This document shows positions 6,828-39,728 of a stretch of DNA of 52,148 nt, in pieces (position 1 is the stretch's first letter; every line of letters begins with the position of its first letter). The translations under genes were made by a program, and so were the position numbers. The notes below the pieces were generated by a model. The model did not search any database, had not been told where the DNA came from, and saw only the letters and a program-made list of their open reading frames with translations. The stretch comes from a virus. Lineage: Duplodnaviria; Caudoviricetes. Location: positions 1 through 52,148 of the IMG/VR virus record IMGVR_UViG_3300049189_000069. The stretch is one strand, 5' to 3'.

Positions 6828-7508
6828 GTTCAAGGCATGCCCAACTTCGTGGGCGCAGACAAGCCCCGGGGTGCGTGCGAAGCACTGTACCTGCAGCGGG
6901 TGCCACAAGATGTGCGGGCGTTTGAAGCGGACCTGTACGTCACCAAGTGGTTCGACTATCGCCGCTGGCACCCGATGACCGCGACCTATTACTGGGTCCA
7001 CTGCTACATCGAAGCGGCACGTCGCTTCTGCGCACAGAACAATGACATCGAGAAGGCCGAGCAGCTGAAGATCTTCGGCGTCGAGGACATCGGCTCCAGT
7101 CGAGACCTCATCGCAGCGATCACCGCCAGGCAGAACCTGGACCGCATCGGCTGCCGTTACGAGTGGGCGTTGACCTGGATGATCAAGCGCCACAGCGACC
7201 GCGGCTGGATGGCGTTCCCACGCCCCAACCAGCTGTACGGCGAGGAGCTCATGCTCGACGTCCGTGACGCCTGGACGGTGGAGTGCGATGCGTCGCTGCA
7301 GATCCCGCGCAGCGCCTACTTCAGGGCAGGGCAGGGCGACGTCCACCAGGAGTTCTCGAGCTGGGCCTTCGACCAGGTGCGTCGGCGCACGGTCGAGCAC
7401 TGGAGGCCCCTGTCGCGCCTCTTGCGTGAAGGAGTTGTCACACCGCAGCAGGTCCAGGAGGCGTTCGGGCACCGCACGGCGGAGCGTGCGATCCGTGTGT
7501 CGAAATAA
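6801..7508 (+). CDS. Hypothetical protein upstream of the replication genes (alternative start 6837)
   Basis: 235-aa ORF with coding-like composition; no motif recognised. Confidence 0.75.
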   Translation: MIGNQGNTQVQGMPNFVGADKPRGACEALYLQRVPQDVRAFEADLYVTKWFDYRRWHPMTATYYWVHCYIEAARRFCAQNNDIEKAEQLKIFGVEDIGSSRDLIAAITARQNLDRIGCRYEWALTWMIKRHSDRGWMAFPRPNQLYGEELMLDVRDAWTVECDASLQIPRSAYFRAGQGDVHQEFSSWAFDQVRRRTVEHWRPLSRLLREGVVTPQQVQEAFGHRTAERAIRVSK

Positions 7509-7527
7509 GTAAGCGCTGAACTATACT
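7506..7527 (+). promoter_or_regulatory. Operator copy fused to a TATACT -10 box
   Basis: TAAGTAAGCGCTGAACTATACT. Confidence 0.75.
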
Positions 7528-7562
7528 GAGCGCGTCCATCTATTTTGTTGGGGAGCAGTCTA

Positions 7563-7841
7563 ATGAGCTACGAGGCATTCGTGTCACCGCGCCCAGCGCG
7601 CAACAAGAGCGGCGACAAAGCGCCGCGCATCACCGGACACGATTCTGTCTTGCGGGCAATCCGCGAGCAGCAGCGTCCGATCACCGTGTGCCTCACCTCG
7701 GGCGACCACCGCGTCGGTCTGCTGGTCGCCAGCGACAAGTACACGCTGACCGTCAAGGGTGACGACAACGTGCGCCGCGTGATCTTCAAGTCCGCGATCG
7801 AGGAGTTCTTCGCCGAAGAGACGTCGGCGGCTCAAGCGTAA
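7563..7841 (+). CDS. Hfq-like (Sm-fold) RNA-binding protein
   Basis: HDSVLRAIREQQRPITVCLTSG..SDKYTL..VIFKSAI parallels Hfq [38 protein letters not shown] SD. Confidence 0.75.
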   Translation: MSYEAFVSPRPARNKSGDKAPRITGHDSVLRAIREQQRPITVCLTSGDHRVGLLVASDKYTLTVKGDDNVRRVIFKSAIEEFFAEETSAAQA

Positions 7842-20322: not shown

Positions 20323-23300
20323 ATGACCATCAACCACGCCCTCGCCATCCGCAGCGACTTCTCCATCGGGGAGGCTAGTCTGCAGGTTGGCAAGATCGTC
20401 GAGCGCGCGAAGGAGCTCGGCTTCGAGTCCGTCGCCCTGGTCGACACCATGTCGGTCTCCGGGATGCCCGACCTCGCCAGCAAGGCGAAGAAGGCGGGCA
20501 TCAAGCCCATCATCGGCTGCACGCTGCGCGTGTACGACGACTCGACCTGGCGCAAGCCCAAGAAAGGTGAGACGGGCCCGACCACCAACCCGATGCACAC
20601 CCTGAAGGTGTACGTACACACCGAGGACGGGCTGCGCCAGCTGTACAAGCTGCTCACGCTCGCCAACGACGAGGCGCACTTCTACTACAACGCCCGCGTC
20701 AGCTTCCAGGAGGTGCTGGATCACCTGCAGCCCGGCGACATCTCGGTCAGCACCGGCGACTTCTACGGGTTGTTCCACCACCCGGACTACTTCAGCCGCT
20801 GCACCTATCTGGTCGACCACTTCAAGACGCTGTGGCTGGAGGTGTCGGCGATCGACACGCCCCTGTTCGACACGCTGAACCTGCGTGCCAAGCACGTCTA
20901 CGACAGCCTGTCGGGCACCAGGCCGCTGATGACCTACCCGGCGCTCTACCCCGAGGGCCAGGCGGACAGCGCGGACGTGCTGCGCGCGATCACGAGCAAC
21001 AACAAGATGACGGACCCGTGGTTGCAGGTGCCGTACATCCGCGACTTCGAGCTCGCCACGCCCATGTCGCTGATGCAGCACGCCAAGAAGGTGATCGAGC
21101 GCGGCGATCTGCCCAGCGAGTTCATCAAGGAGGCGATCCGCAACGTGCCGGTGTTCGCGTCCCAGGACTTCTACGCTTTCGAGAAGAAGCCGCCGTCGCT
21201 GCCCGTGATGGCGCCCGACGAGTTCGTCGCGCTGGTCGACGAGTGCAAGAAGGGCTGGCACGAGCGCTTCCAACACGACGTGCTGGGGCACTGCCCCACA
21301 GGCGTCGACCGCAACACCGTCTACCGCCAGCGCCTGGCGTACGAGCTGGAGACCATCCGCAAGATGGGCTTCAGCGGCTACTTCCTGCTGGTGCAGGAGA
21401 TCGTGCGCTGGTCCAAGGACAACGGCATCATGGTCGGGCCAGGTCGGGGCTCGGTAGGCGGCTCGCTGATCGCCTACCTGATGGGCATCACCGACGTCGA
21501 CCCAATCCGCTTCAACCTCCTGTTCGAGCGGTTCATCAACCCCGACCGGGTGGACTTGCCTGACGCCGACCTGGACTTCATGTCCACCCGCCGGCAGGAG
21601 GTGATCGAGCACATCGAGCAGCGCTACGGCAAGGAGAACGTCGCCGGCATCAGCAACTACTCCCGTCTGGGTCCCGCGTCCGCCATGCGCGACGTCGGCC
21701 GGGTGTTCGGGCTGGACCTGCTGGAGCTGCATGCATCCAAGCAGACCGAGAAGGAGCACGGGGAACAGGTGCCACTCGCGGAGTCCGCGGAGAACGTCCC
21801 CGACATCGCCAAGTTCCGGGACAAGCATCCGACCGTCTGGAAGCACGCGCTAGCGCTGTCGCCCGAGACGCGCTCGGATTCCGGGTGCCTGCGATCGCTG
21901 GGGCGTCACGCCGCCGGTGTGGTGGTTGCCGGCGAGCCGGTCGTCAACCGGGCAGTCGTCGAGACCCGCAGCGGGGGCCAGGTGGTCAACTGGGACAAGC
22001 GCACGGTCGAGGATCACGGCTTGATCAAGATGGACATCCTGGGTCTGTCGACCCTGGACATCCTGCAGCTGTGCGCCAACTACATCAAGGAGCGGCACTT
22101 CAAGACGGTCGACTTCATGCGCCTGCCGCTGGACGACGAGCGTGTGCTGAAGGCGTTCGCCCGGGGCGAGACGGTGGGCGTGTTCCAGTACGAGTCGGGG
22201 GGCATGCGCAAGCTGCTGACCCAGCTCGCCGAGGGCGGGCCCCTGACGTTCGAGGACCTGGTTGCCGTGACCGCACTGTTCCGCCCGGGCCCGCTGGATG
22301 CGGGCATGTGCGACGACTACGTGGCGATCAAGCAGGGCACCAAGACCCCGTACTACGAGCACCCCAACGTGCGCGCCGCGCTCGAGCCCACCATGGGCGT
22401 CATCATCTACCAAGAGCAGGTGATGCAGATCTGCCGCGACGTGTCGGGCTTCACGATGACCGAAGCCGACCACGTGCGCAAAGCGATGGGCAAGAAGGAC
22501 AAGGACAAGATGGCGGAGTGGGGCGAGAAGTTCGTCCAGGGCGCCGCCACCGTGTCGGGCATGGGCGAGTTCCAGGCGAAGGCGCTGTGGGAGAAGCTCG
22601 CGGGCTTCGCCGCCTACGGTTTCAACCGCTCGCACGCGGTGGAGTACGCCGTCATCAGCTGGTGGTCGATGTGGTGCAAAGTTAACTACCCCGCCGAGTT
22701 CTTCGCAGCGGCGATGTCCACCGTCGACAAGGACGACAAGCTCTCGACCCTGATGCTCGACGCGCGCCGCTGTCACATCGAGGTGCTGCCGCCGGACATC
22801 AACCTGTCGACCAACCGCATCGAGATCCGCGGCGAGCGCGAGCTCATCGCCCCGTTCCAGGCGGTCAAGGGCATCAGCGAGAACGCCAGCAAGGCGATCA
22901 TGCACCTGCGCGGCCTGGCCGGCGGGAAGTTCGACAACATGGCGCAGCTCGAAGCGCTGGTGACCGCCAACAAGATGGGCGCCAAGTGCAACAAGACCCA
23001 CCGCGAGCGCCTGGAGAAGGTGGGTGCCTTCCACTCCACGGACGGTGGCCCCGCACCGACGCACGAGGATCGCCTGAAGGACCGGCTCGACCTGATGCCG
23101 GGCTTCACCGTCGACACCGTGAAGGCGACCCGTGCGATCGTCGCGGATACCTACGTGATGAGCAAGATGATCCGTCTGCACGAGGACGCGAAGATCTGCA
23201 CTGCCTGCTCGCTGGCCGGGCACAAGCACGTGGCTTCGCGCACGGGCAGGACACCGAAGTTCATGGTGGTCTTCGACAGCCCGAGCTACGCCGAGGACAA

Positions 23301-23709
23301 GGCGGAGAAGATGTTCGAGGGTGACATGGCCGACTACTTCAAGGCAGCACTCAAGGACGCCGGCGTGTCGCTCAACGACGGGCACTACACGGCGCTCGTG
23401 CGCGCCATGAAGCCCAAGGGGGCGAAGACGCTGACCACCGAGCAGATCAACGGCTGCAGCAACTTCCTGCTGCAGGAGATCGACCTGCTCAAGCCACCGG
23501 TGATCGTGGCGATGGGCTCCGCGGCGGTGAAGTTCTTTGCGCCAGGGATCAAGGGCAATCCTTCCGAACTGATCGGGAAGGTGGTGTTTGACTCGAAGCG
23601 GGATGCGTCGATCGTCTTCGGGCTGAACCCGGGCCAGGTCTTCCATGACCCCGCGAAGGTCGCGCTGCTCGAGACCGTGGCGCGCAAGATCGCTGACCTG
23701 ATCGTATAA
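20323..23709 (+). CDS. dnaE: DNA polymerase III alpha subunit with C-terminal uracil-DNA glycosylase-like domain
   Basis: PHP-like N-terminus, GPGRGSVGGS, LPDADLDF, HAAGVV, KMDILGL, YQEQVMQ, YGFNRSH; C-terminal CTACSL..EIDLLKPPVIVAMG family-4 UDG pattern. Confidence 0.95.
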   Translation: MTINHALAIRSDFSIGEASLQVGKIVERAKELGFESVALVDTMSVSGMPDLASKAKKAGIKPIIGCTLRVYDDSTWRKPKKGETGPTTNPMHTLKVYVHTEDGLRQLYKLLTLANDEAHFYYNARVSFQEVLDHLQPGDISVSTGDFYGLFHHPDYFSRCTYLVDHFKTLWLEVSAIDTPLFDTLNLRAKHVYDSLSGTRPLMTYPALYPEGQADSADVLRAITSNNKMTDPWLQVPYIRDFELATPMSLMQHAKKVIERGDLPSEFIKEAIRNVPVFASQDFYAFEKKPPSLPVMAPDEFVALVDECKKGWHERFQHDVLGHCPTGVDRNTVYRQRLAYELETIRKMGFSGYFLLVQEIVRWSKDNGIMVGPGRGSVGGSLIAYLMGITDVDPIRFNLLFERFINPDRVDLPDADLDFMSTRRQEVIEHIEQRYGKENVAGISNYSRLGPASAMRDVGRVFGLDLLELHASKQTEKEHGEQVPLAESAENVPDIAKFRDKHPTVWKHALALSPETRSDSGCLRSLGRHAAGVVVAGEPVVNRAVVETRSGGQVVNWDKRTVEDHGLIKMDILGLSTLDILQLCANYIKERHFKTVDFMRLPLDDERVLKAFARGETVGVFQYESGGMRKLLTQLAEGGPLTFEDLVAVTALFRPGPLDAGMCDDYVAIKQGTKTPYYEHPNVRAALEPTMGVIIYQEQVMQICRDVSGFTMTEADHVRKAMGKKDKDKMAEWGEKFVQGAATVSGMGEFQAKALWEKLAGFAAYGFNRSHAVEYAVISWWSMWCKVNYPAEFFAAAMSTVDKDDKLSTLMLDARRCHIEVLPPDINLSTNRIEIRGERELIAPFQAVKGISENASKAIMHLRGLAGGKFDNMAQLEALVTANKMGAKCNKTHRERLEKVGAFHSTDGGPAPTHEDRLKDRLDLMPGFTVDTVKATRAIVADTYVMSKMIRLHEDAKICTACSLAGHKHVASRTGRTPKFMVVFDSPSYAEDKAEKMFEGDMADYFKAALKDAGVSLNDGHYTALVRAMKPKGAKTLTTEQINGCSNFLLQEIDLLKPPVIVAMGSAAVKFFAPGIKGNPSELIGKVVFDSKRDASIVFGLNPGQVFHDPAKVALLETVARKIADLIV

Positions 23710-34699: not shown

Positions 34700-37048
34700 A
34701 TGCAAAACATGACCCCCGCGCGTGTCTACGCCGCGGGCATCGGCGACGCTGTCGCCGATCGCACCATCAATCGCAAGCTGGATCCCGAAACCCGCCTCGA
34801 GCTCGAGGCGTTGCCGCACGGCGTCAAGGACACCCGTGCCTTCGTACGCGAGACCTGGGAAGAGGTCGCGCTGCGCGTCGCCGAAGGCAACACGCTGCTG
34901 CATCCCAAGGACGCCGCGCACGAGTTCAGCGTCCTGCATCGCCACCTGCGTCAGGCATCCGTGCTGATGTCCGGTCGGCACCTGCAGCACGGTGACACCA
35001 CGCAGCCCTCGCGCAACCAGGAGGTGTTCACCAACTGCAGCACGAGCGCCATGTCCCTCGTTCTGTTCTACCTGCTGCTCAACGGCTCGGGCGTCGGTCG
35101 CTGCTACGACGACGACATGATGCTCGTGGACTGGTGCAAGAGCATGCCGGTTGTGGTGCCCTACATCAGCAACACGCACAAGGACGTGCTCACCGGCGAA
35201 ATCCCGGTGAAGTTCACCGACGACTTCTGGCAGTTCTTCGACGCCGACGAGGTGATCTACTTCGAGGTGCCCGACAGCCGCGAGGGCTGGGCGAAGGCGG
35301 TCGAGCAGATCGAGCGCTACACCTACGAGGGCGTGCACGCCAACAAGACGCTGGTGCTGGACTTCAGCCTGGTGCGCGAGAAGGGCGCTCCGATCCGCGG
35401 CATGCAGAACCGCCCCGCGTCCGGGCCGGCGCCGCTGATGCAGGCGATCGCGAACATCGGCACGCTCAAGGGCGGAAAGGTCGACCCGTTTGAAGCCACG
35501 ATGTGGGCCGACCACTACCTCGCCGAGTGCGTGCTGGTGGGTGGGGCCCGCCGCGCTGCGCGCATGGCGACCAAGACCTGGCGCGATCGCAACGTGCTGC
35601 GCTTTGTCAACATCAAGAAGGGCGGCGTGCTCTGGAGCTCGAACAACAGCGTCACGGTCGACGCCGAGTTCTGGGAGGGCGTGCGGGCGGTCGAGGAGGC
35701 GCTGGACCTGATCGGCAGCAAGGACCCCTGGGTGGCGCAGGAGATGCTCCTCAAGCTCGCCAGCAACGGCACCCTGACCGAGCTGCAGCTGCACGCCCAC
35801 CGCGTCTTCAGCGCCATCTGCCACGCGTCGTACTTCGACGGCACGGGCGAGCCCGGGCTGATCAACGTCGACCGGCTCACGCAGAACGACGAGGGCATCG
35901 AAGCGCTGCTCGACGGCGACTTCGCCGAGTCGCAGCGCTTCAAGCTGGACCCGCAGACCAAGCAGCTGACTGCGGCGCTCGCGAAGGTGTTCGCGACCAA
36001 GCCGCTGAACATGATCGTCAACCCGTGTGGGGAGATCCCACTGTCGCTGCTGGGCGGCTACTGCGTGATCGCGGACTGGGTGCCGTTCCACGCTGGTTCC
36101 CAGTCGCGCGAAGGCCCGGAGTTCTTCCTGCCCAACGAATGGGACGACGACGCCGAAGCCGCCATCCGTGCCGCGACGCGCGCCCTGATCCGCGTCAACA
36201 CGATGGATTGCCTCTACAGCAAGGAGGTGCGCCGCACCAACCGCATCGGGGTGGGCTTCACGGGCATCCACGAGTACGCCTGGGCGCGCTTCGGTTACGG
36301 CTGGAAGGATCTGGTCAACGAGCAGAAGAGCCTGTCCTTCTGGAAGACGATGGCGCGCTTCTCGTGCGCAGCGGTCGACGAGGCACGCACGTACAGCGCT
36401 GCGCTGGGTGTGCCGATGCCGCACACGGTGACCACGGTCAAGCCCGCCGGCACCACCAGCAAGCTCTTCGGGCTGTCCGAGGGCGCGCACCTGCCGAGCA
36501 TGCGTGAGTACCTTCGCTGGGTGCAGTTCCGCAACGACGATCCGCTGATCGAGGAGTACCGCGCGAAGGGCTACCCGGTGCGCCAGCTCAAGACCTACAG
36601 CGGAACGACCATCGTGGGCTTCCCAACGGTGCCGCAGATCTGCACGCTGGGCATGGGCGACAAGCTGGTGACGGCAGCCGAAGCGACGCCCGAGGAGCAG
36701 TACGAGTTCCTGCGCCTGCTGGAGAAGTATTGGCTGCACGGCGACGGCGCCCACCAGTACGGCGGACAGGTTAGCTACACGCTGAAGTACGACCCGAAGA
36801 CGGTGGACTTCGAGCATTTCCGCCGCACGCTGCTCGAGGGCCAGTCGACGATCAAGTGCTGCAGCGTCATGCCGCAGACCGACGCGACAAGCTACGAGTA
36901 CCAGCCCGAGGAGCCGGTGAGCAAGGAACGCTTCGATGAGATCGTTGCCGCGATCAAGACGGGCGCCCCGAAGGAAGACGTCGGCTTCGAGCACGTGGAC
37001 TGCAGTTCGGGGAGCTGTCCTGTGGATTTTTTGGGCAGCGAGAGGTGA
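34700..37048 (+). CDS. nrdJ: Ribonucleotide reductase, class II (adenosylcobalamin-dependent)
   Basis: SGR, TNC, DSREGW, GGARRAA, NPCGEI, TVKPAGT, C-terminal CSSGSCP; no beta subunit in the window. Confidence 0.88.
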   Translation: MQNMTPARVYAAGIGDAVADRTINRKLDPETRLELEALPHGVKDTRAFVRETWEEVALRVAEGNTLLHPKDAAHEFSVLHRHLRQASVLMSGRHLQHGDTTQPSRNQEVFTNCSTSAMSLVLFYLLLNGSGVGRCYDDDMMLVDWCKSMPVVVPYISNTHKDVLTGEIPVKFTDDFWQFFDADEVIYFEVPDSREGWAKAVEQIERYTYEGVHANKTLVLDFSLVREKGAPIRGMQNRPASGPAPLMQAIANIGTLKGGKVDPFEATMWADHYLAECVLVGGARRAARMATKTWRDRNVLRFVNIKKGGVLWSSNNSVTVDAEFWEGVRAVEEALDLIGSKDPWVAQEMLLKLASNGTLTELQLHAHRVFSAICHASYFDGTGEPGLINVDRLTQNDEGIEALLDGDFAESQRFKLDPQTKQLTAALAKVFATKPLNMIVNPCGEIPLSLLGGYCVIADWVPFHAGSQSREGPEFFLPNEWDDDAEAAIRAATRALIRVNTMDCLYSKEVRRTNRIGVGFTGIHEYAWARFGYGWKDLVNEQKSLSFWKTMARFSCAAVDEARTYSAALGVPMPHTVTTVKPAGTTSKLFGLSEGAHLPSMREYLRWVQFRNDDPLIEEYRAKGYPVRQLKTYSGTTIVGFPTVPQICTLGMGDKLVTAAEATPEEQYEFLRLLEKYWLHGDGAHQYGGQVSYTLKYDPKTVDFEHFRRTLLEGQSTIKCCSVMPQTDATSYEYQPEEPVSKERFDEIVAAIKTGAPKEDVGFEHVDCSSGSCPVDFLGSER

Positions 37049-37107
37049 TCGACTGGCCCGAGTTGCGGTTTGGGCCAGTCAACCTGCTTACCATTGGGCG
37101 TCAAACA

Positions 37108-37129
37108 TAAGTAAGCAGTGAGCTATACT
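37108..37129 (+). promoter_or_regulatory. Operator copy fused to TATACT, driving the ribozyme-tRNA transcript
   Basis: TAAGTAAGCAGTGAGCTATACT. Confidence 0.78.
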
Positions 37130-37139
37130 GCTTAGCGAA

Positions 37140-37222
37140 CCTCCTGATGAGCCCGTGAGATCCGGGCGAAACATCAACCGGGCAACTGCGGTGATCCACC
37201 GGAGCCTTGGTTGATGTCGGGG
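37140..37222 (+). ncRNA. Type I hammerhead ribozyme; predicted cleavage 3' of C37218
   Basis: Stem I CCUC/GGGG; CUGAUGA 37144-37150; stem II GCCCG/CGGGC; GAAA 37168-37171; stem III ACAUCAACC/GGUUGAUGU; GUC triplet 37216-37218. Confidence 0.9.
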
Positions 37223-37283
37223 CGAATGCAGGCGAGGTCTACATGGATAAGGTGACTTCGCCAACACCTAGTCGCCCCGACTT
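37219..37283 (+). ncRNA. Putative small structured RNA between the ribozyme cut and tRNA-Asn
   Basis: GGGGCGA/UCGCCCC terminal stem, internal loop, GGCGAGGUC/GACUUCGCC stem. Confidence 0.55.
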
Positions 37284-37358
37284 TCCGAGGTAGCTCAGCG
37301 GTAGAGCAGGGGACTGTTAATCCCCTGGTCGGTGGTTCGATCCCACCCCTCGGAGCCA
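37284..37358 (+). tRNA. tRNA-Asn (GTT)
   Basis: Cloverleaf: TCCGAGG/CCTCGGA, anticodon loop CTGTTAA, TTCGATC T-loop, encoded CCA. Confidence 0.95.
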
Positions 37359-37360
37359 AA

Positions 37361-37435
37361 GGCCCTGTCGACCAGCGGTTAGGTCACCACCCTTTCACGG
37401 TGGTAACGCGGGTTCGAATCCCGCCAGGGCTACCA
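37361..37435 (+). tRNA. tRNA-Glu (TTC)
   Basis: Cloverleaf: GGCCCTG/CAGGGCT, anticodon loop CTTTCAC, TTCGAAT T-loop, encoded CCA. Confidence 0.95.
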
Positions 37436-37503
37436 GTTTGAGGGGACGTCGTTGTGGATGACGGGCAAGTTAGGCAGAGGGTCGATTACTGGACGCCAGC
37501 ATC

Positions 37504-37806
37504 ATGCGCAAACGAGAGCTCGAGGCTTCGAATGGTTGGGCATCTGGCACTGCCTCATCAGACGCTGCTGCGGTTGATCTCGATGGAGAACGCAGCGGCG
37601 TTGCAGATGCTGAGTCAGAGCGGACTGCAGGGCAACAGGAGCCGCAGGACGCCCAAGACCCCGACCTCCTGATCTGGCTGCTGCAAGACAAGGTGCAGCG
37701 CCTGCAGCAGCAGATCGCCGAGCTTCTCGCCCACGTGATCGAGCTCGACTACCGCCTGGTTCTGCCCATGAAAGTTCAGAAACTCCAACAGCAAGGATGC
37801 GTATGA
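37504..37806 (+). CDS. Hypothetical protein with C-terminal coiled coil
   Basis: Heptad pattern LQDKVQRLQQQIAEL; stop coupled to ATG 37803. Confidence 0.5.
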   Translation: MRKRELEASNGWASGTASSDAAAVDLDGERSGVADAESERTAGQQEPQDAQDPDLLIWLLQDKVQRLQQQIAELLAHVIELDYRLVLPMKVQKLQQQGCV

Positions 37807-38521
37807 CGACTGCGATGCAGTTCAAGACCGCCCGGTGCGCCGTTACTGGGTCGACACGATGGCGCGCTCGATGCGTCAGGGCGACTTCCCGCTGACCCAC
37901 CAGCCCGTGGCGCTGGGTCCCAGCGGGCAGCTGCTGGACGGACAACACCGGCTCATGGCGGTGGTGAAGTCGGGCGCCACGGTGGAGCTGCCGGTCGCGT
38001 TCAACGTCGCCCCCGAGACCTTCGCCTACATCGACGGCGGCATCCGTCGCTCCAAGGCGGACGCGATGCGGGTGCCGCGCAAGATCCAGGAAGTCACCAA
38101 CATGCTGGGCGAGATCCTGTTCGATCGCCCCACCAACGCCGAGCTGCAGCGCATCCACGACATCGTCGGCGACACCACGCAGGCGCTGGTCGAGCACTGC
38201 TCGGGCAACTGCAAGTTCTTCAGCAGCGCCTCCATCAAGACCGCCGCGGTGACGCGCATCTTCGCCGGCGACCGCAAGAGCTACGTGCTGCCGCTGTACC
38301 GCAACCTGGTCATGGCAGACCTGGACGCGCTGCCGCCCATCGGCAAGGCGATGGTCAAGCAGCAGCTGCGCGGCACGCTCGCGGGCACCAACCGCAGCGA
38401 ATCGCTGCACCGGGGCCTGACCGTCTTCAACGAGAAGAACGCGGCGCTGACGCGCGTGCAGGTGGTCGACGCCGCCCTCGCGTACGACAGCGTGCGCCAC
38501 GTGTTCAAGAAGATCATCTGA
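37803..38521 (+). pseudogene. ParB/Srx-like (DGQHR) domain gene with an apparent frameshift near the 5' end
   Basis: SD AAGGA and ATGA-coupled ATG 37803 read only 30 codons; the LLDGQHRL domain is in another frame that opens only at GTG 37835 without an SD. Confidence 0.5.
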
Positions 38522-38543: not shown

Positions 38544-39728
38544 ATGAGCGCATTCGAGTGCCCGGTCGTCCGGGTGAACATCGAGCCGCATCCGAACGCG
38601 GATGCGATCGAGCTCGCCGTCGTCGGCGGCTACATCTCCATCGTCAAGAAGGGTCAGTTCAAGAACGGCGATCTCGCCGTCTACATCCCCGAGCAGGCGG
38701 TGCTGCCCGAGTGGCTGCTGAAGTCGCTGGGCTTCTGGGACGACATGAACGGCAAGGGCAAGCTCTCGGGCGGCGCCGGCAACCGGGTGCGCGCAATCAA
38801 GCTGCGCGGCGTGCTGTCGCAGGGCATCCTGCTCGACGGTGACAACTACGAGGGCGACTGGGTGCTTGGCGGCGCACCCACCGAGATCGGCGTTCCGCTG
38901 CGCGACTTCAACGAGGGCGACGACGCCGCCGAGTTCCTGGGCATCACCAAGTTCGAACCCAAGGTGCCCGCGCAGATGGCGGGCAAGGTCGCCGGCGGCG
39001 ATCTGGATGCGACGATCGGCTTCGACTTCGAGAACCTGAAGAAGTGCCCGAGCCTGTTCGAAGACGGCATGGAAGTCGTCATCACCGAGAAGATCCACGG
39101 CACGCTGCTGCAGGTCGGCATCGTCCCGCGGCGCATCTGGGAGGGCAAGTCCTGGGCGGACAAGTGCCCGGACGTGGGCGACGACTTCAAGGGCATCGTC
39201 ACCAGCAAGGGCCAGGGCGCGAAGGGCCTGATGCTGGACCCCTCGGACACGACCAACCTCTACGTCAAGGCGGCGATCGAGGCGGGGATGTGGGAGAAGC
39301 TGCAGGCGATGCGCACCGAGGTGCTGGGCCACCCCGACGACATGCCGCTGTTCATCTTCGGCGAGATCTTCGGCATCGGCGTCCAGGACCTGGGCTACGG
39401 GCAGGAGAAGCCGGGGTTCCGTGCGTTCGACATCTACGCCGGCACGCGCAGCAACGGCTTCTACCTGACCCATGACCTGCTGGTGCAGTGCCTGGGTCGC
39501 GGTGACCTGCCCATGGTGCCGCAGCTGTATCGCGGACCCTTCAGCGCCGGCGTGGTGAAGCTGCACACGGACGGCAACACGATCATCAACGGCGTCAAGC
39601 AGATCCGCGAGGGCGTCGTCGTGAAGGCAGCGCACGACACCAACCACCCGCGCTACGGGCGCCGGATCGCGAAGAGCGTGTCCGAAGCCTACCTGCTGCG
39701 CAAGGGCGAGGTGACGGAGTACCAGTAG
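38544..39728 (+). CDS. ATP-dependent RNA ligase, DRB0094-like family
   Basis: N-terminal PHPNADAIELA..KKGQF..GDLAVY..LRGVLSQG; TEKIHGT, FGEIFG, FRAFD, REGVVVK, KSVS..YL. Confidence 0.9.
   Translation: MSAFECPVVRVNIEPHPNADAIELAVVGGYISIVKKGQFKNGDLAVYIPEQAVLPEWLLKSLGFWDDMNGKGKLSGGAGNRVRAIKLRGVLSQGILLDGDNYEGDWVLGGAPTEIGVPLRDFNEGDDAAEFLGITKFEPKVPAQMAGKVAGGDLDATIGFDFENLKKCPSLFEDGMEVVITEKIHGTLLQVGIVPRRIWEGKSWADKCPDVGDDFKGIVTSKGQGAKGLMLDPSDTTNLYVKAAIEAGMWEKLQAMRTEVLGHPDDMPLFIFGEIFGIGVQDLGYGQEKPGFRAFDIYAGTRSNGFYLTHDLLVQCLGRGDLPMVPQLYRGPFSAGVVKLHTDGNTIINGVKQIREGVVVKAAHDTNHPRYGRRIAKSVSEAYLLRKGEVTEYQ

What the first reader, a model, noticed from the sequence alone, without database searches (positions are those of the whole stretch)
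37108..37435. Hammerhead ribozyme forms the 5' leader of the phage tRNA transcript
Seen: a complete type I hammerhead core (CUGAUGA 37144-37150, stem II GCCCG/CGGGC, GAAA, 9-bp stem III, GUC 37216-37218, 4-bp stem I). It begins about 10 nt after an operator-bound TATACT box and ends about 60 nt before tRNA-Asn and tRNA-Glu. Known: hammerheads leave a 5'-OH and a 2',3'-cyclic phosphate, and HDV-like theta ribozymes trim the 3' trailers of phage tRNAs. Inference: here a different ribozyme class processes the 5' side of a tRNA operon, removing the triphosphate end and defining the 5' end of the next RNA.
Basis: partly seen in the sequence, partly recalled or inferred. Interest (0 to 1): 0.88.

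Follow-up and report, generated by a model that had tools for sequence, protein, structure and literature searches.

The report
Hammerhead ribozyme heading phage Y-RNA/tRNA cluster
A real self-cleaving hammerhead ribozyme in a soil phage sits directly in front of a small Y RNA-like hairpin and two tRNA genes, so it probably cuts out the front end of that small RNA rather than trimming the tRNAs themselves.

Summary
Window 37140-37222 holds a complete type I hammerhead (HH). It scores 52.8 bits (E about 3.5e-16) against my own covariance model, built from 36 other phage HHs; the next best hit in the window is 10.9 bits. A descriptor found 0 hits in 300 shuffles.

The 65 nt between the cleavage site (C37218|G37219) and tRNA-Asn are not a spacer. 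They form a Y RNA-like (Yrl) stem carrying GGCGAAUGC...CUACA...CUAGUCGCC. In bacterial genomes this same element lies beside Ro60/Rsr (40 of 80 loci) and RtcB (38 of 80).

HH-then-Yrl recurs in five other viral records. One of these reaches Rfam's YrlA cut-off, and two have no tRNA gene found near the pair. In each record it is the only HH.

The mature tRNA 5' end must still be made by RNase P. HH and RNase P together would release a roughly 65-nt 5'-OH Yrl RNA.

Separately, HHs 18-102 nt upstream of tRNAs occur in 12 other viral loci.

The upstream 22-mer occurs four times in the window and is a plausible promoter, but this is unproven.

None of this has been tested experimentally, and Rfam cut-offs are not met in the window itself.

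The parts
34700..37048 (+). Upstream gene: class II (B12-dependent) ribonucleotide reductase.
   Evidence: Pfam RNR-II_ins_dom E=1.4e-12 and Ribonuc_red_lgC. blastn matches Rhizobium phage RNR genes.
37108..37129 (+). Promoter-like 22-mer TAAgTAAGCnnTgAgCTATACT, ending in the TATACT box (37124-29).
   Evidence: Four copies in the window, at 7506-27, 24353-74, 37108-29 and 46425-46. All are on the + strand and intergenic, with 0 expected by chance. There is no canonical -35/-10 match.
37112..37134 (.). 8-bp inverted repeat TAAGCAGT-N7-ACTGCTTA overlapping the 22-mer. It could be an operator, or an RNA hairpin in read-through transcripts.
   Evidence: Seen directly in the sequence and flagged in the hairpin scan. 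The right arm is absent from the other three copies of the 22-mer.
37140..37222 (+). Type I hammerhead ribozyme: stem I 37140-43/37219-22, core 37144-50, stem II 37151-67, GAAA 37168-71, stem III 37172-37216, U16.1 37217, C17 37218.
   Evidence: Descriptor hit with stems 4/5/11 and 0 hits in 300 shuffles. R1 scores 52.8 bits, E about 3.5e-16. The MFE of 37130-37235 is a three-way junction, z=-2.5.
37218..37219 (+). Predicted self-cleavage site, between C37218 and G37219.
   Evidence: Position follows from the hammerhead consensus (GUC then cut). It lies 2 nt before the GNCGAANG motif, as in 4 of 6 HH-Yrl loci.
37219..37278 (+). Y RNA-like (Yrl, stem-only, YrlB-like) hairpin: P1 GGGGCGA/UCGCCCC, 5' internal loop AUGC, P2 of 9 bp, apical CUACAUGG, 3' internal loop AACACCUAG. 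It contains GGCGAAUG (37221-28), which fits the GNCGAAN0-1G motif.
   Evidence: Folds at -29.3 kcal/mol, z=-2.8. The top two Rfam hits are YrlB at 19.5 bits (E=0.048) and YrlA at 16.1 bits (E=0.25). The same three blocks appear in viral loci. They also appear in 80 bacterial loci beside Ro60, RtcB, RtcA and RtcR.
37279..37283 (+). 5-nt linker GACUU between the Yrl stem and tRNA-Asn.
   Evidence: GAC can extend P1 by pairing with GUC 37216-18 in the uncut precursor.
37284..37358 (+). tRNA-Asn (GTT), with CCA encoded.
   Evidence: ARAGORN. Rfam tRNA 69.6 bits.
37361..37435 (+). tRNA-Glu (TTC), with CCA encoded.
   Evidence: ARAGORN. Rfam tRNA 66.2 bits.
37835..38521 (+). Downstream ORF of unknown function carrying a DGQHR motif. 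The ParB-like label is recalled, not from a call.
   Evidence: phrog_5931, E=1.9e-18, unknown function. Translation.
38544..39728 (+). ATP-dependent-type RNA ligase with an N-terminal OB domain and a KIHGT motif.
   Evidence: Pfam RNA_ligase E=9.4e-19 and PHA02142 OB-fold E=6.8e-15. phrog_968 'RNA ligase' E=1.5e-48. Translation.

Best explanation
The locus is a phage non-coding RNA cassette in this order: probable promoter, type I hammerhead, Y RNA-like stem, tRNA-Asn, tRNA-Glu.

Proposed mechanism (all steps inferred):
1. The hammerhead folds as soon as its stem I 3' strand (GGGG, 37219-22) has been transcribed.
2. It cuts after C37218. The whole ribozyme, or the RNR mRNA plus ribozyme in read-through transcripts, stays on the 5' fragment with a 2',3'-cyclic phosphate.
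3. The 3' fragment then starts with a 5'-OH exactly at the first nucleotide of the Yrl stem.
4. The short 4-bp stem I falls apart, and the same GGGG(CGA) pairs with UCGCCCC 37272-78 to close the Yrl hairpin.
5. RNase P cutting at the 5' end of tRNA-Asn (37283|37284) releases a roughly 65-nt Yrl RNA and the tRNAs.

So the ribozyme makes the 5' end of a phage-encoded Y RNA-like RNA and separates the ncRNA cluster from upstream RNA. It does not mature the tRNA.

Shown: the sequence and structure matches, and their recurrence in other loci. Inferred: cleavage, the order of folding, the RNase P step, and any binding to Ro60.
For: Hammerhead:
- Complete core and three helices.
- 52.8 bits against an independent model of 36 phage HHs, whose helices show 13 of 15 pairs with compensatory changes.
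- It is the only HH in the 52-kb window.

Yrl identity:
- GGCGAAUG at nt 3-10 of the 3' product fits the GNCGAAN0-1G motif that Chen et al. 2014 place near the 5' end of Yrl RNAs and link to Rsr binding (PMC4201824, passages).
- The two best Rfam families for 37212-37290 are YrlB and YrlA, both aligned end to end from about 37219.
- The blocks GGCGAAUGC, (C)UACA and CU[A/U]GUCGCC are invariant or nearly so in 7 aligned viral and metagenomic copies, while the P2 sequence differs between them.
- One such copy (L086) sits in a tandem array of four elements scoring 54, 49.1, 38.3 and 33.5 bits on Rfam YrlA, directly upstream of RtcB.
From database size I estimated roughly six by chance; this is my arithmetic, not a call.
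- Of the 80 loci returned, 40 encode a Ro60-like protein and 38 encode RtcB by tblastn. ORF clusters also give RtcA in 16 and RtcR in 10.

HH-Yrl link:
- The same arrangement occurs in L050, L067, L193, L197 and L203. L193 scores 69.7 bits on YrlA, at or above the gathering score of 69. L203/L206 scores 33.4 bits on YrlA, E=2.5e-5.
- The cut falls 2 nt before the motif in 4 of 6 loci.
- In all 5 other records the single R1 hit is the one at the Yrl, including two 100%-complete genomes.

Mutually exclusive folds:
- The full precursor prefers the Yrl P1 over HH stem I by 8.3 kcal/mol in the window, 5.0 in L050 and 0.3 in L197.
Against: - There is no experimental or expression evidence.
- Rfam gathering scores are not met for any HH family, nor for YrlA or YrlB in the window (16.1 against 69; 19.5 against 97).
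- L197's stem-only element gave no YrlA hit at E<=1.
- Most viral Yrl copies were found with patterns taken from the window's own flanks, so flank identity is circular. Only the loop, P2 and genomic context are independent.
- No Ro60 (TROVE or vWA_Ro60) was found in the window or in 7 other viral records, 4 of them at least 90% complete. This fails the adjacency criterion used by Chen et al.
- The equilibrium fold of the uncut precursor disfavours the active hammerhead, so cleavage may be inefficient.
- 13 loci of RNR relatives (50-66% identity) have no HH, so the layout is not conserved with the neighbouring gene.
- Stem I is only 4 bp, and no tertiary contact was identified.
Confidence: 0.6

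Rival explanations
1. The hammerhead is simply the self-removing 5' leader of a tRNA operon. It strips the 5' triphosphate and sets the 5' end of the pre-tRNA, and the 65-nt hairpin is an ordinary leader discarded by RNase P.
For: HHs 18-102 nt upstream of same-strand tRNAs were found in 12 of 26 loci of a directed scan (10 distinct sequences). Some cut only 18-19 nt before the tRNA (L057, L055). In L040/L059 the cut falls 6 nt before a tRNA-like element. In L240 (Rhizobium sp.) an HH heads tRNA-Gly-Gln-Asn, and the Yrl lies after the tRNAs. The 22-mer promoter-like motif fits a start just before stem I.
Against: The leader is under strong sequence constraint. Its Yrl blocks are identical in distant loci where the adjacent tRNA differs: Asn in L050, Ser in L067. 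HH-Yrl pairs occur with no tRNA gene found near them (L197; L203/L206). RNase P removes any leader, so the ribozyme is not needed for tRNA maturation (established knowledge). The scan was designed to find HH-tRNA pairs. In an undirected sample, 0 of 36 HHs had a tRNA nearby.
Confidence: 0.2
2. Generic polycistronic processing. As proposed for prophage hammerheads, the ribozyme merely separates the RNR mRNA from whatever follows. This gives the mRNA a structured 3' end with a cyclic phosphate. The neighbourhood with Yrl and tRNA is incidental.
For: Perreault et al. 2011 (PMC3088659, passages) report multiple HHs flanking genes in prophages and in-vitro cleavage of such arrays. My sample shows the same: 7 HH-like cores in L016, 8 descriptor HHs in L024 and 5 cores in L027, each right after a stop codon and before the next RBS. 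Das et al. 2015 (PMC4524478, passage) predict an HH just 3' of an RNR alpha gene in Mycobacterium. No strong terminator separates RNR from the HH.
Against: This phage has one HH in 52 kb, not one per gene junction. The five other HH-Yrl records also have exactly one, always at the Yrl. The cut is placed 2 nt before the Yrl motif in 4 of 6 loci. A promoter-like 22-mer lies between the RNR stop and the HH.
Confidence: 0.15
3. Chance or decayed motif: a hammerhead-like sequence that no longer cleaves.
For: Rfam models do not reach threshold. Stem I is short. The uncut precursor favours a competing fold. No RNA runs were available to check.
Against: 0 descriptor hits in 300 shuffles. 52.8 bits on the independent model. 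Every core position matches the consensus. The same architecture recurs upstream of Yrl in five other records.
Confidence: 0.05

Closest known systems
Type I hammerhead ribozymes of phage and prophage intergenic regions (Perreault et al. 2011, PMC3088659; Rfam clan CL00010)
   Same: Identical catalytic core, three-helix junction and GUC cleavage triplet. The stem II loop GUGAGAUC is shared with many IMG/VR phage HHs, and L030 has the identical stem II and loop. It also lies in a phage intergenic region.
   Different: It is a single copy per genome rather than an array between protein genes. It is followed by a structured ncRNA and tRNAs rather than an RBS. It has a long (45-nt) stem III element. 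It is not recognised by Rfam HH models at their thresholds.
Bacterial Y RNA-like RNAs YrlA/YrlB of rsr-yrl-rtcBA operons (Chen et al. 2014, PMC4201824; Rfam RF02553, RF02565)
   Same: GNCGAAN0-1G motif near the 5' end. A long stem is formed by the 5' and 3' ends, with asymmetric internal loops. CUAC follows the P2 5' strand, as in the YrlA consensus. The same three sequence blocks flank Ro60 and RtcB genes in bacteria. tRNAs or tRNA-like modules are nearby, and RNase P takes part in processing (M. smegmatis YrlA; passages).
   Different: There is no tRNA-like domain (stem-only, YrlB-like). No Ro60 gene was found in the phage records examined. It sits in a tRNA cluster next to an Rnl-type rather than an RtcB ligase. 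Its 5' end is made by a ribozyme. It scores below Rfam gathering scores.
HDV-like theta ribozymes next to phage tRNAs (Kienbeck et al. 2024, PMC10879173)
   Same: A small self-cleaving ribozyme embedded in a phage tRNA locus and acting in cis on the ncRNA precursor. This comparison rests on the title and abstract listing.
   Different: It is a different ribozyme class and lies on the opposite side. This HH cuts 65 nt upstream of the tRNA and does not create a tRNA end. That paper's main text contains no occurrence of 'hammerhead'.
Engineered ribozyme-RNA-tRNA processing cassettes and natural tRNA-linked small RNAs (recalled general knowledge, not from a call)
   Same: The ends of a small RNA are defined by a 5' self-cleaving ribozyme and by RNase P acting on a downstream tRNA.
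   Different: This would be a natural phage example. The payload would be a Y RNA-like stem.

Membership tests
Hammerhead ribozyme (type I) | Conserved core C3-U4-G5-A6-N7-G8-A9 and G12-A13-A14. | tested here: met
   CUGAUGA 37144-50 and GAA 37168-70.
Hammerhead ribozyme (type I) | A15.1-U16.1 pair followed by a non-G nucleotide (H17) at the cleavage site. | tested here: met
   A37171-U37217, then C37218.
Hammerhead ribozyme (type I) | Three helices around the core, with core-adjacent pairs formed; stems II and III closed, stem I open. | tested here: met
   Stems of 4/5/11 bp. G10.1-C11.1 and C2.1-G1.1 are paired. The R1 alignment shows one non-standard outer pair only.
Hammerhead ribozyme (type I) | Score at or above Rfam gathering threshold for a hammerhead family. 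| tested here: not met
   No HH at gathering score. RF00008 gives 19.4 against 48.5 bits in a wrong register. RF00163 gives none at E<=10. My own model R1 gives 52.8 bits.
Hammerhead ribozyme (type I) | Tertiary contact between stem I and loop II, needed for fast cleavage at physiological Mg2+. | not tested
   No partner for loop II was identified. Stem I is only 4 bp.
Hammerhead ribozyme (type I) | Site-specific self-cleavage giving 2',3'-cyclic phosphate and 5'-OH. | not testable with these tools
   No RNA run is listed for this sequence.
Y RNA-like RNA (YrlA/YrlB) | GNCGAAN0-1G motif near the 5' end (Chen et al. 2014). | tested here: met
   GGCGAAUG 37221-28, which is nt 3-10 of the predicted 3' product.
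Y RNA-like RNA (YrlA/YrlB) | Long stem formed by the 5' and 3' ends, with internal loops. | tested here: met
   P1 7 bp plus P2 9 bp, -29.3 kcal/mol, z=-2.8. End-to-end alignment to the YrlA and YrlB models.
Y RNA-like RNA (YrlA/YrlB) | Score at or above Rfam gathering threshold. | tested here: not met
   YrlB 19.5 against 97; YrlA 16.1 against 69. A relative behind an HH (L193) reaches 69.7 against 69.
Y RNA-like RNA (YrlA/YrlB) | Encoded close to a Ro60/Rsr (TROVE) gene on the same strand. | tested here: not met
   No TROVE or vWA_Ro60 in the window or in 7 other viral records. The window is about 48% of a genome. The same element is next to Ro60 in 40 of 80 bacterial loci.
Y RNA-like RNA (YrlA/YrlB) | tRNA-like domain (YrlA only). 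| tested here: not met
   In the YrlA alignment the whole tRNA-like part is deleted. The element is stem-only, like YrlB.
Y RNA-like RNA (YrlA/YrlB) | Binds Ro60/Rsr. | not testable with these tools
   No Ro60 partner is known for this phage. No complex prediction was run.
Sigma-70-type promoter | -35 and -10 hexamers at 16-18 nt spacing. | tested here: not met
   0 promoter-like sites in 36500-38000. Only the -10-like TATACT and a conserved upstream 16 nt are shared by the four copies.

The most novel reading that the evidence does not exclude
Phages of soil bacteria, here probably a Rhizobium-type host, carry 'orphan' Y RNA-like RNAs without a Ro60 gene of their own. They use a dedicated hammerhead at the 5' end, and tRNA-processing enzymes at the 3' end, to manufacture them in a host-independent way. 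The 5'-OH Yrl RNA would then engage or titrate the host Rsr/Ro60-PNPase or the RtcR/RtcB RNA-repair system during infection. This would give a concrete biological role to a bacterial-virus hammerhead, and would reveal a phage strategy aimed at host RNA quality control and repair.
Probability: 0.35. Interest if true: 0.85.

Novelty: new variant of a known kind. Interest (0 to 1): 0.68.

Why it matters
What hammerheads do in bacteria and phages is still described as open in the review I read: Weinberg et al. [quoted passage not shown]

Here the ribozyme has one fixed partner across six viral records. That partner is a Y RNA-like stem whose first nucleotides are the ribozyme's own stem I 3' strand. 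This gives a testable function: making the 5' end of a defined small RNA.

It also extends Y RNA-like RNAs to phages that lack Ro60, and to tRNA clusters. Chen et al. 2014 searched only genomes that encode a TROVE protein (passage).

It also shows that ribozyme-plus-tRNA processing cassettes, used in engineering, may have a natural phage counterpart.

I found no paper that reports a hammerhead next to a Y RNA, or upstream of phage tRNAs (searches). Supplementary alignments of the hammerhead and Yrl papers were not available to me and might contain such cases.

Tried and rejected
- Rfam at gathering score found only the tRNAs.
- RF00163 on the window found nothing at E<=10.
- Relatives found through the RNR protein (13 IMG/VR loci, 50-66% identity) have no HH at E<=1. 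They do not share the layout, although L005 has a tRNA array right after RNR.
- A blastn search of phage GenBank records found only RNR and tRNA similarity, and no HH or Yrl region match.
- One IMG/VR scan was wasted on a mis-registered pattern (1 hit).
- The metagenome scan with a 16-base Yrl pattern returned mostly chance hits. Of the 80 loci returned, I judged one (L086) clearly structured. L071, L096, L129 and L130 were left undecided, and R1 found no HH in them.
- In one search, 4 of 8 hits (L065, L066, L068, L070) looked like chance or coding matches and were dropped.
- In one search, 11 of 17 loci had no R1 hammerhead and were dropped. L201 has an HH but no convincing Yrl.
- L047 gave a weak 3/3/3 descriptor hit that R1 did not support at E<=0.01. 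It is not counted.
- RNA ligase (window type) and RtcB were absent from the other viral records tested, so a ligase link is not general. It holds only for the window and L086.
- No RNA holder was listed for the sequence. Contigs from four soil or rhizosphere DNA runs are identical over the HH wherever they cover it, so they gave no variation to test covariation.
- Structure prediction, complex prediction, the protein database searches and the protein atlas were not used, because the question is about RNA.
- Supplementary files of papers were not opened.
Full report
THE WINDOW

The window is an IMG/VR virus record of 52,148 bases, estimated about 48% complete. GC content is 64%, and nearly all genes are on the + strand.

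Identified genes include a DNA polymerase III alpha fused to UDG, CobT/VWA, an SMC-like ATPase, a RuvC-like resolvase, a class II RNR, thymidylate synthase, an Hfq-like protein and an RNA ligase.

Near-identical DNA is held by soil and rhizosphere metagenome runs from 24 studies.

THE OBSERVATION

- The motif is a type I hammerhead. Stem I is CCUC 37140-43 / GGGG 37219-22. The core is CUGAUGA. Stem II is 5 bp with loop UGAGAUC, followed by GAAA. Stem III is long and itself branches into a small hairpin. The triplet GUC sets the cut after C37218.
- A descriptor written for this architecture finds only this site in the window. It finds none in 300 Markov shuffles on both strands.
- Rfam does not call it.
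- I therefore collected phage hammerheads independently. A scan of IMG/VR with the window's stem II sequence gave 21 loci. The descriptor then found 36 distinct type I hammerheads in them, most with other stem sequences.
- These align with 94.8% of cells paired, and 13 of 15 pairs show compensatory changes. The sequences were chosen with a pairing descriptor, so this is partly circular.
- The model built from them (R1) contains no window sequence. It scores 37138-37224 at 52.8 bits over its full length. The next hit in the window scores 10.9 bits.

I regard the hammerhead as genuine by sequence and structure. Cleavage itself is untested.

WHAT LIES BEHIND THE RIBOZYME

The 36 reference hammerheads sit after stop codons and before the next gene's RBS, often in arrays. 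This is the pattern described by Perreault et al. 2011 (PMC3088659, passages). None of the 36 has a tRNA nearby.

The window differs. It has a single hammerhead, and what follows is a 65-nt hairpin and two tRNAs.

A directed IMG/VR scan (HH core plus a T-loop 120-150 nt further on) gave 26 loci.

- In 12 of them R1 finds a hammerhead, and ARAGORN finds a same-strand tRNA 18-102 nt after the cut.
- L040/L059 and L053/L056 are duplicates, so these are 10 distinct cases.
- One of them, L050, has a leader whose ends are identical to the window's: GGCGAAUGC ... CCUAGUCGCC.

IDENTITY OF THE LEADER

- A scan for those two blocks in IMG/VR found structured copies in L050, L067, L064 and L069. Four other hits were dropped as probable chance matches.
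- A metagenome scan added L086.
- In all copies an unselected third block, (C)UACA, follows a P2 helix whose sequence differs from locus to locus.
- In L086 the element is one of four tandem elements that Rfam's YrlA model scores at 54, 49.1, 38.3 and 33.5 bits (E 4e-11 to 3.4e-5; gathering score 69). They lie directly upstream of an RtcB gene. A Ro60-like gene is also in that locus.
- For the window's 79-nt stretch, the two best of 4,227 Rfam families are YrlB (19.5 bits, E=0.048) and YrlA (16.1 bits, E=0.25). Both align end to end starting at about 37219, and both are far below gathering scores.
- Chen et al. [quoted passage not shown] The window has GGCGAAUG at nt 3-10 of the predicted 3' product.
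- The decisive context test was a scan of 185,579 species genomes with the three blocks. Among the 80 loci returned, a Ro60-like protein is encoded in 40 and RtcB in 38 by tblastn. ORF clusters gave 33 and 32, plus RtcA in 16 and RtcR in 10, with one representative of each cluster checked in Pfam.

That is the rsr-yrl-rtcBA neighbourhood. I conclude that 37219-37278 is a stem-only Y RNA-like element, with the caveat that the window's copy itself fails Rfam thresholds.

THE RIBOZYME'S PARTNER IS THE Yrl ELEMENT

A scan for an HH core followed within 20-50 nt by GCGAAUGC gave 17 loci. R1 confirms hammerheads in L193, L197, L203 and L201, besides L050 and L067.

- L193: the element behind the ribozyme reaches Rfam's YrlA cut-off (69.7 against 69). 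It is flanked by tRNAs on both sides.
- L203/L206: a YrlA-like element at 33.4 bits, with no tRNA in the 801 nt around the pair. The locus does hold one tRNA about 430 nt upstream of the HH.
- L197: a stem-only Yrl with no tRNA in 14.8 kb. It gave no Rfam YrlA hit at E<=1.
- L201: the motif is probably a chance occurrence.

The cut lies 2 nt before the GNCGAANG motif in 4 of 6 loci, 7 nt before it in L203 and 14 nt before it in L193.

Each of the five other records contains exactly one R1 hit, the one at the Yrl. Two of these records are complete genomes.

Conversely, only 1 of 80 bacterial Yrl loci has a hammerhead. This is L240 (Rhizobium sp.), where the order is HH, tRNA-Gly, tRNA-Gln, tRNA-Asn, Yrl, then tRNA-Ile.

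The ribozyme therefore always marks the 5' edge of a phage-type ncRNA cluster containing a Yrl element.

MECHANISM (INFERRED)

Stem I's 3' strand and the first nucleotides of Yrl P1 are the same nucleotides. In the uncut precursor the Yrl P1 wins: it extends to 10 bp by including GUC/GAC. The HH-competent fold is 8.3 kcal/mol less stable in the window, 5.0 in L050 and 0.3 in L197.

The ribozyme must therefore act while the roughly 55 nt up to the P1 3' strand are still being made. After the cut, the 3' product snaps into the Yrl stem with a 5'-OH at its first paired base.

RNase P at tRNA-Asn would then free a roughly 65-nt RNA. RNase P processing of a Yrl precursor has precedent in M. smegmatis (passages).

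THE PROMOTER CLAIM

The TATACT box is the end of a 22-mer that occurs four times in the window, always on the + strand and intergenic. The copies lie before the Hfq-like ORF, before ORF 24434, before the HH and before ORF 46465. None is expected by chance.

This supports a phage promoter or other transcription signal. It is not a canonical sigma-70 site.

The inverted repeat is peculiar to this copy. L050 and L067 have a terminator-like hairpin and T-run just upstream of the HH instead, and L193 has a tRNA. A promoter immediately upstream is therefore not part of the conserved design.

ORPHAN STATUS AND CONTEXT

No TROVE or Ro60-vWA domain was found in the window or in seven other viral records. 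Four of those records are at least 90% complete.

The nearest Yrl sequences to the window's are in Rhizobium genomes (L254, L240, L226). Another Rhizobium locus (L208) has the element with Ro60 and RtcB.

The window also encodes an Rnl-type RNA ligase 1.1 kb downstream of the tRNAs. Together with L086's RtcB, this hints at a link to RNA repair. The link is not general.

LITERATURE

I found no report of a hammerhead adjacent to a Y RNA, or upstream of phage tRNAs (searches).

- The theta-ribozyme paper (PMC10879173) does not mention hammerheads in its main text.
- I saw passages only of PMC3088659, PMC6765202, PMC4201824, PMC10085705 and PMC4524478.
- I saw no supplements.

VERDICT

The hammerhead is a new member of a known class. 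Its fixed coupling to an orphan phage Y RNA-like RNA in a tRNA cluster is, as far as I could find, a new variant, and it makes the function of a phage hammerhead directly testable.

Noticed in passing
window 7545-7841 (+), with the 22-mer at 7506-7527: A phage-encoded Hfq-like protein (Pfam Hfq, E=4.5e-8), directly preceded by a copy of the promoter-like 22-mer.
   Followed up: partly
window 20323-23709 (+): DNA polymerase III alpha (PHP, NTPase, finger and HHH domains) with a C-terminal uracil-DNA glycosylase domain in one ORF.
   Followed up: no
window 37436-37834: About 400 nt between tRNA-Glu and the next confident gene. The only ORF (37504-37806) has low GC3 (0.63, against about 0.9 elsewhere) and no family hit. 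It may be non-coding.
   Followed up: partly
L041, L043, L063 (IMG/VR, low GC): A conserved hairpin with loop GGUUCGUGAGAAUAG occurs twice per locus: just before the hammerhead, and again just before tRNA-Gln. Its function is unknown.
   Followed up: no
L040 and L059, 6 nt after the HH cleavage site: A tRNA-like element (7-bp acceptor-like stem, T arm GGUUCGAAUCC) that ARAGORN does not call. It lies between the hammerhead and tRNA-Pro inside a large tRNA array.
   Followed up: no
L086 9365-9965 (-), 8112-9335 (-), 2359-6051 (-): Four tandem YrlA-like elements upstream of RtcB, with a Ro60-like gene in the same locus. There is also a 1230-aa ORF ending in an RNR small-chain domain.
   Followed up: partly
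L016, L024, L027/L028 (IMG/VR): Arrays of type I hammerheads at successive gene junctions: 7 HH-like cores in 4 kb, 8 descriptor HHs in 7 kb and 5 cores in 2 kb. Each sits between a stop codon and the next RBS.
   Followed up: partly
L203 954-1028 (-): ARAGORN calls a tRNA with anticodon CTA (labelled tRNA-Pyl), a possible amber suppressor, in the complete 77-kb viral record that also has the HH-YrlA pair.
   Followed up: no
L050 7361-7484 (+): Rfam Betaproteobacteria-1 RNA at 73.4 bits, above its gathering score of 49.4. It lies 1.7 kb upstream of the HH-Yrl-tRNA cassette in a provirus record.
   Followed up: no
L062 11097-11170 (-): A tRNA with a four-base anticodon (ttca) reported by ARAGORN, in a 176-kb viral contig.
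   Followed up: no
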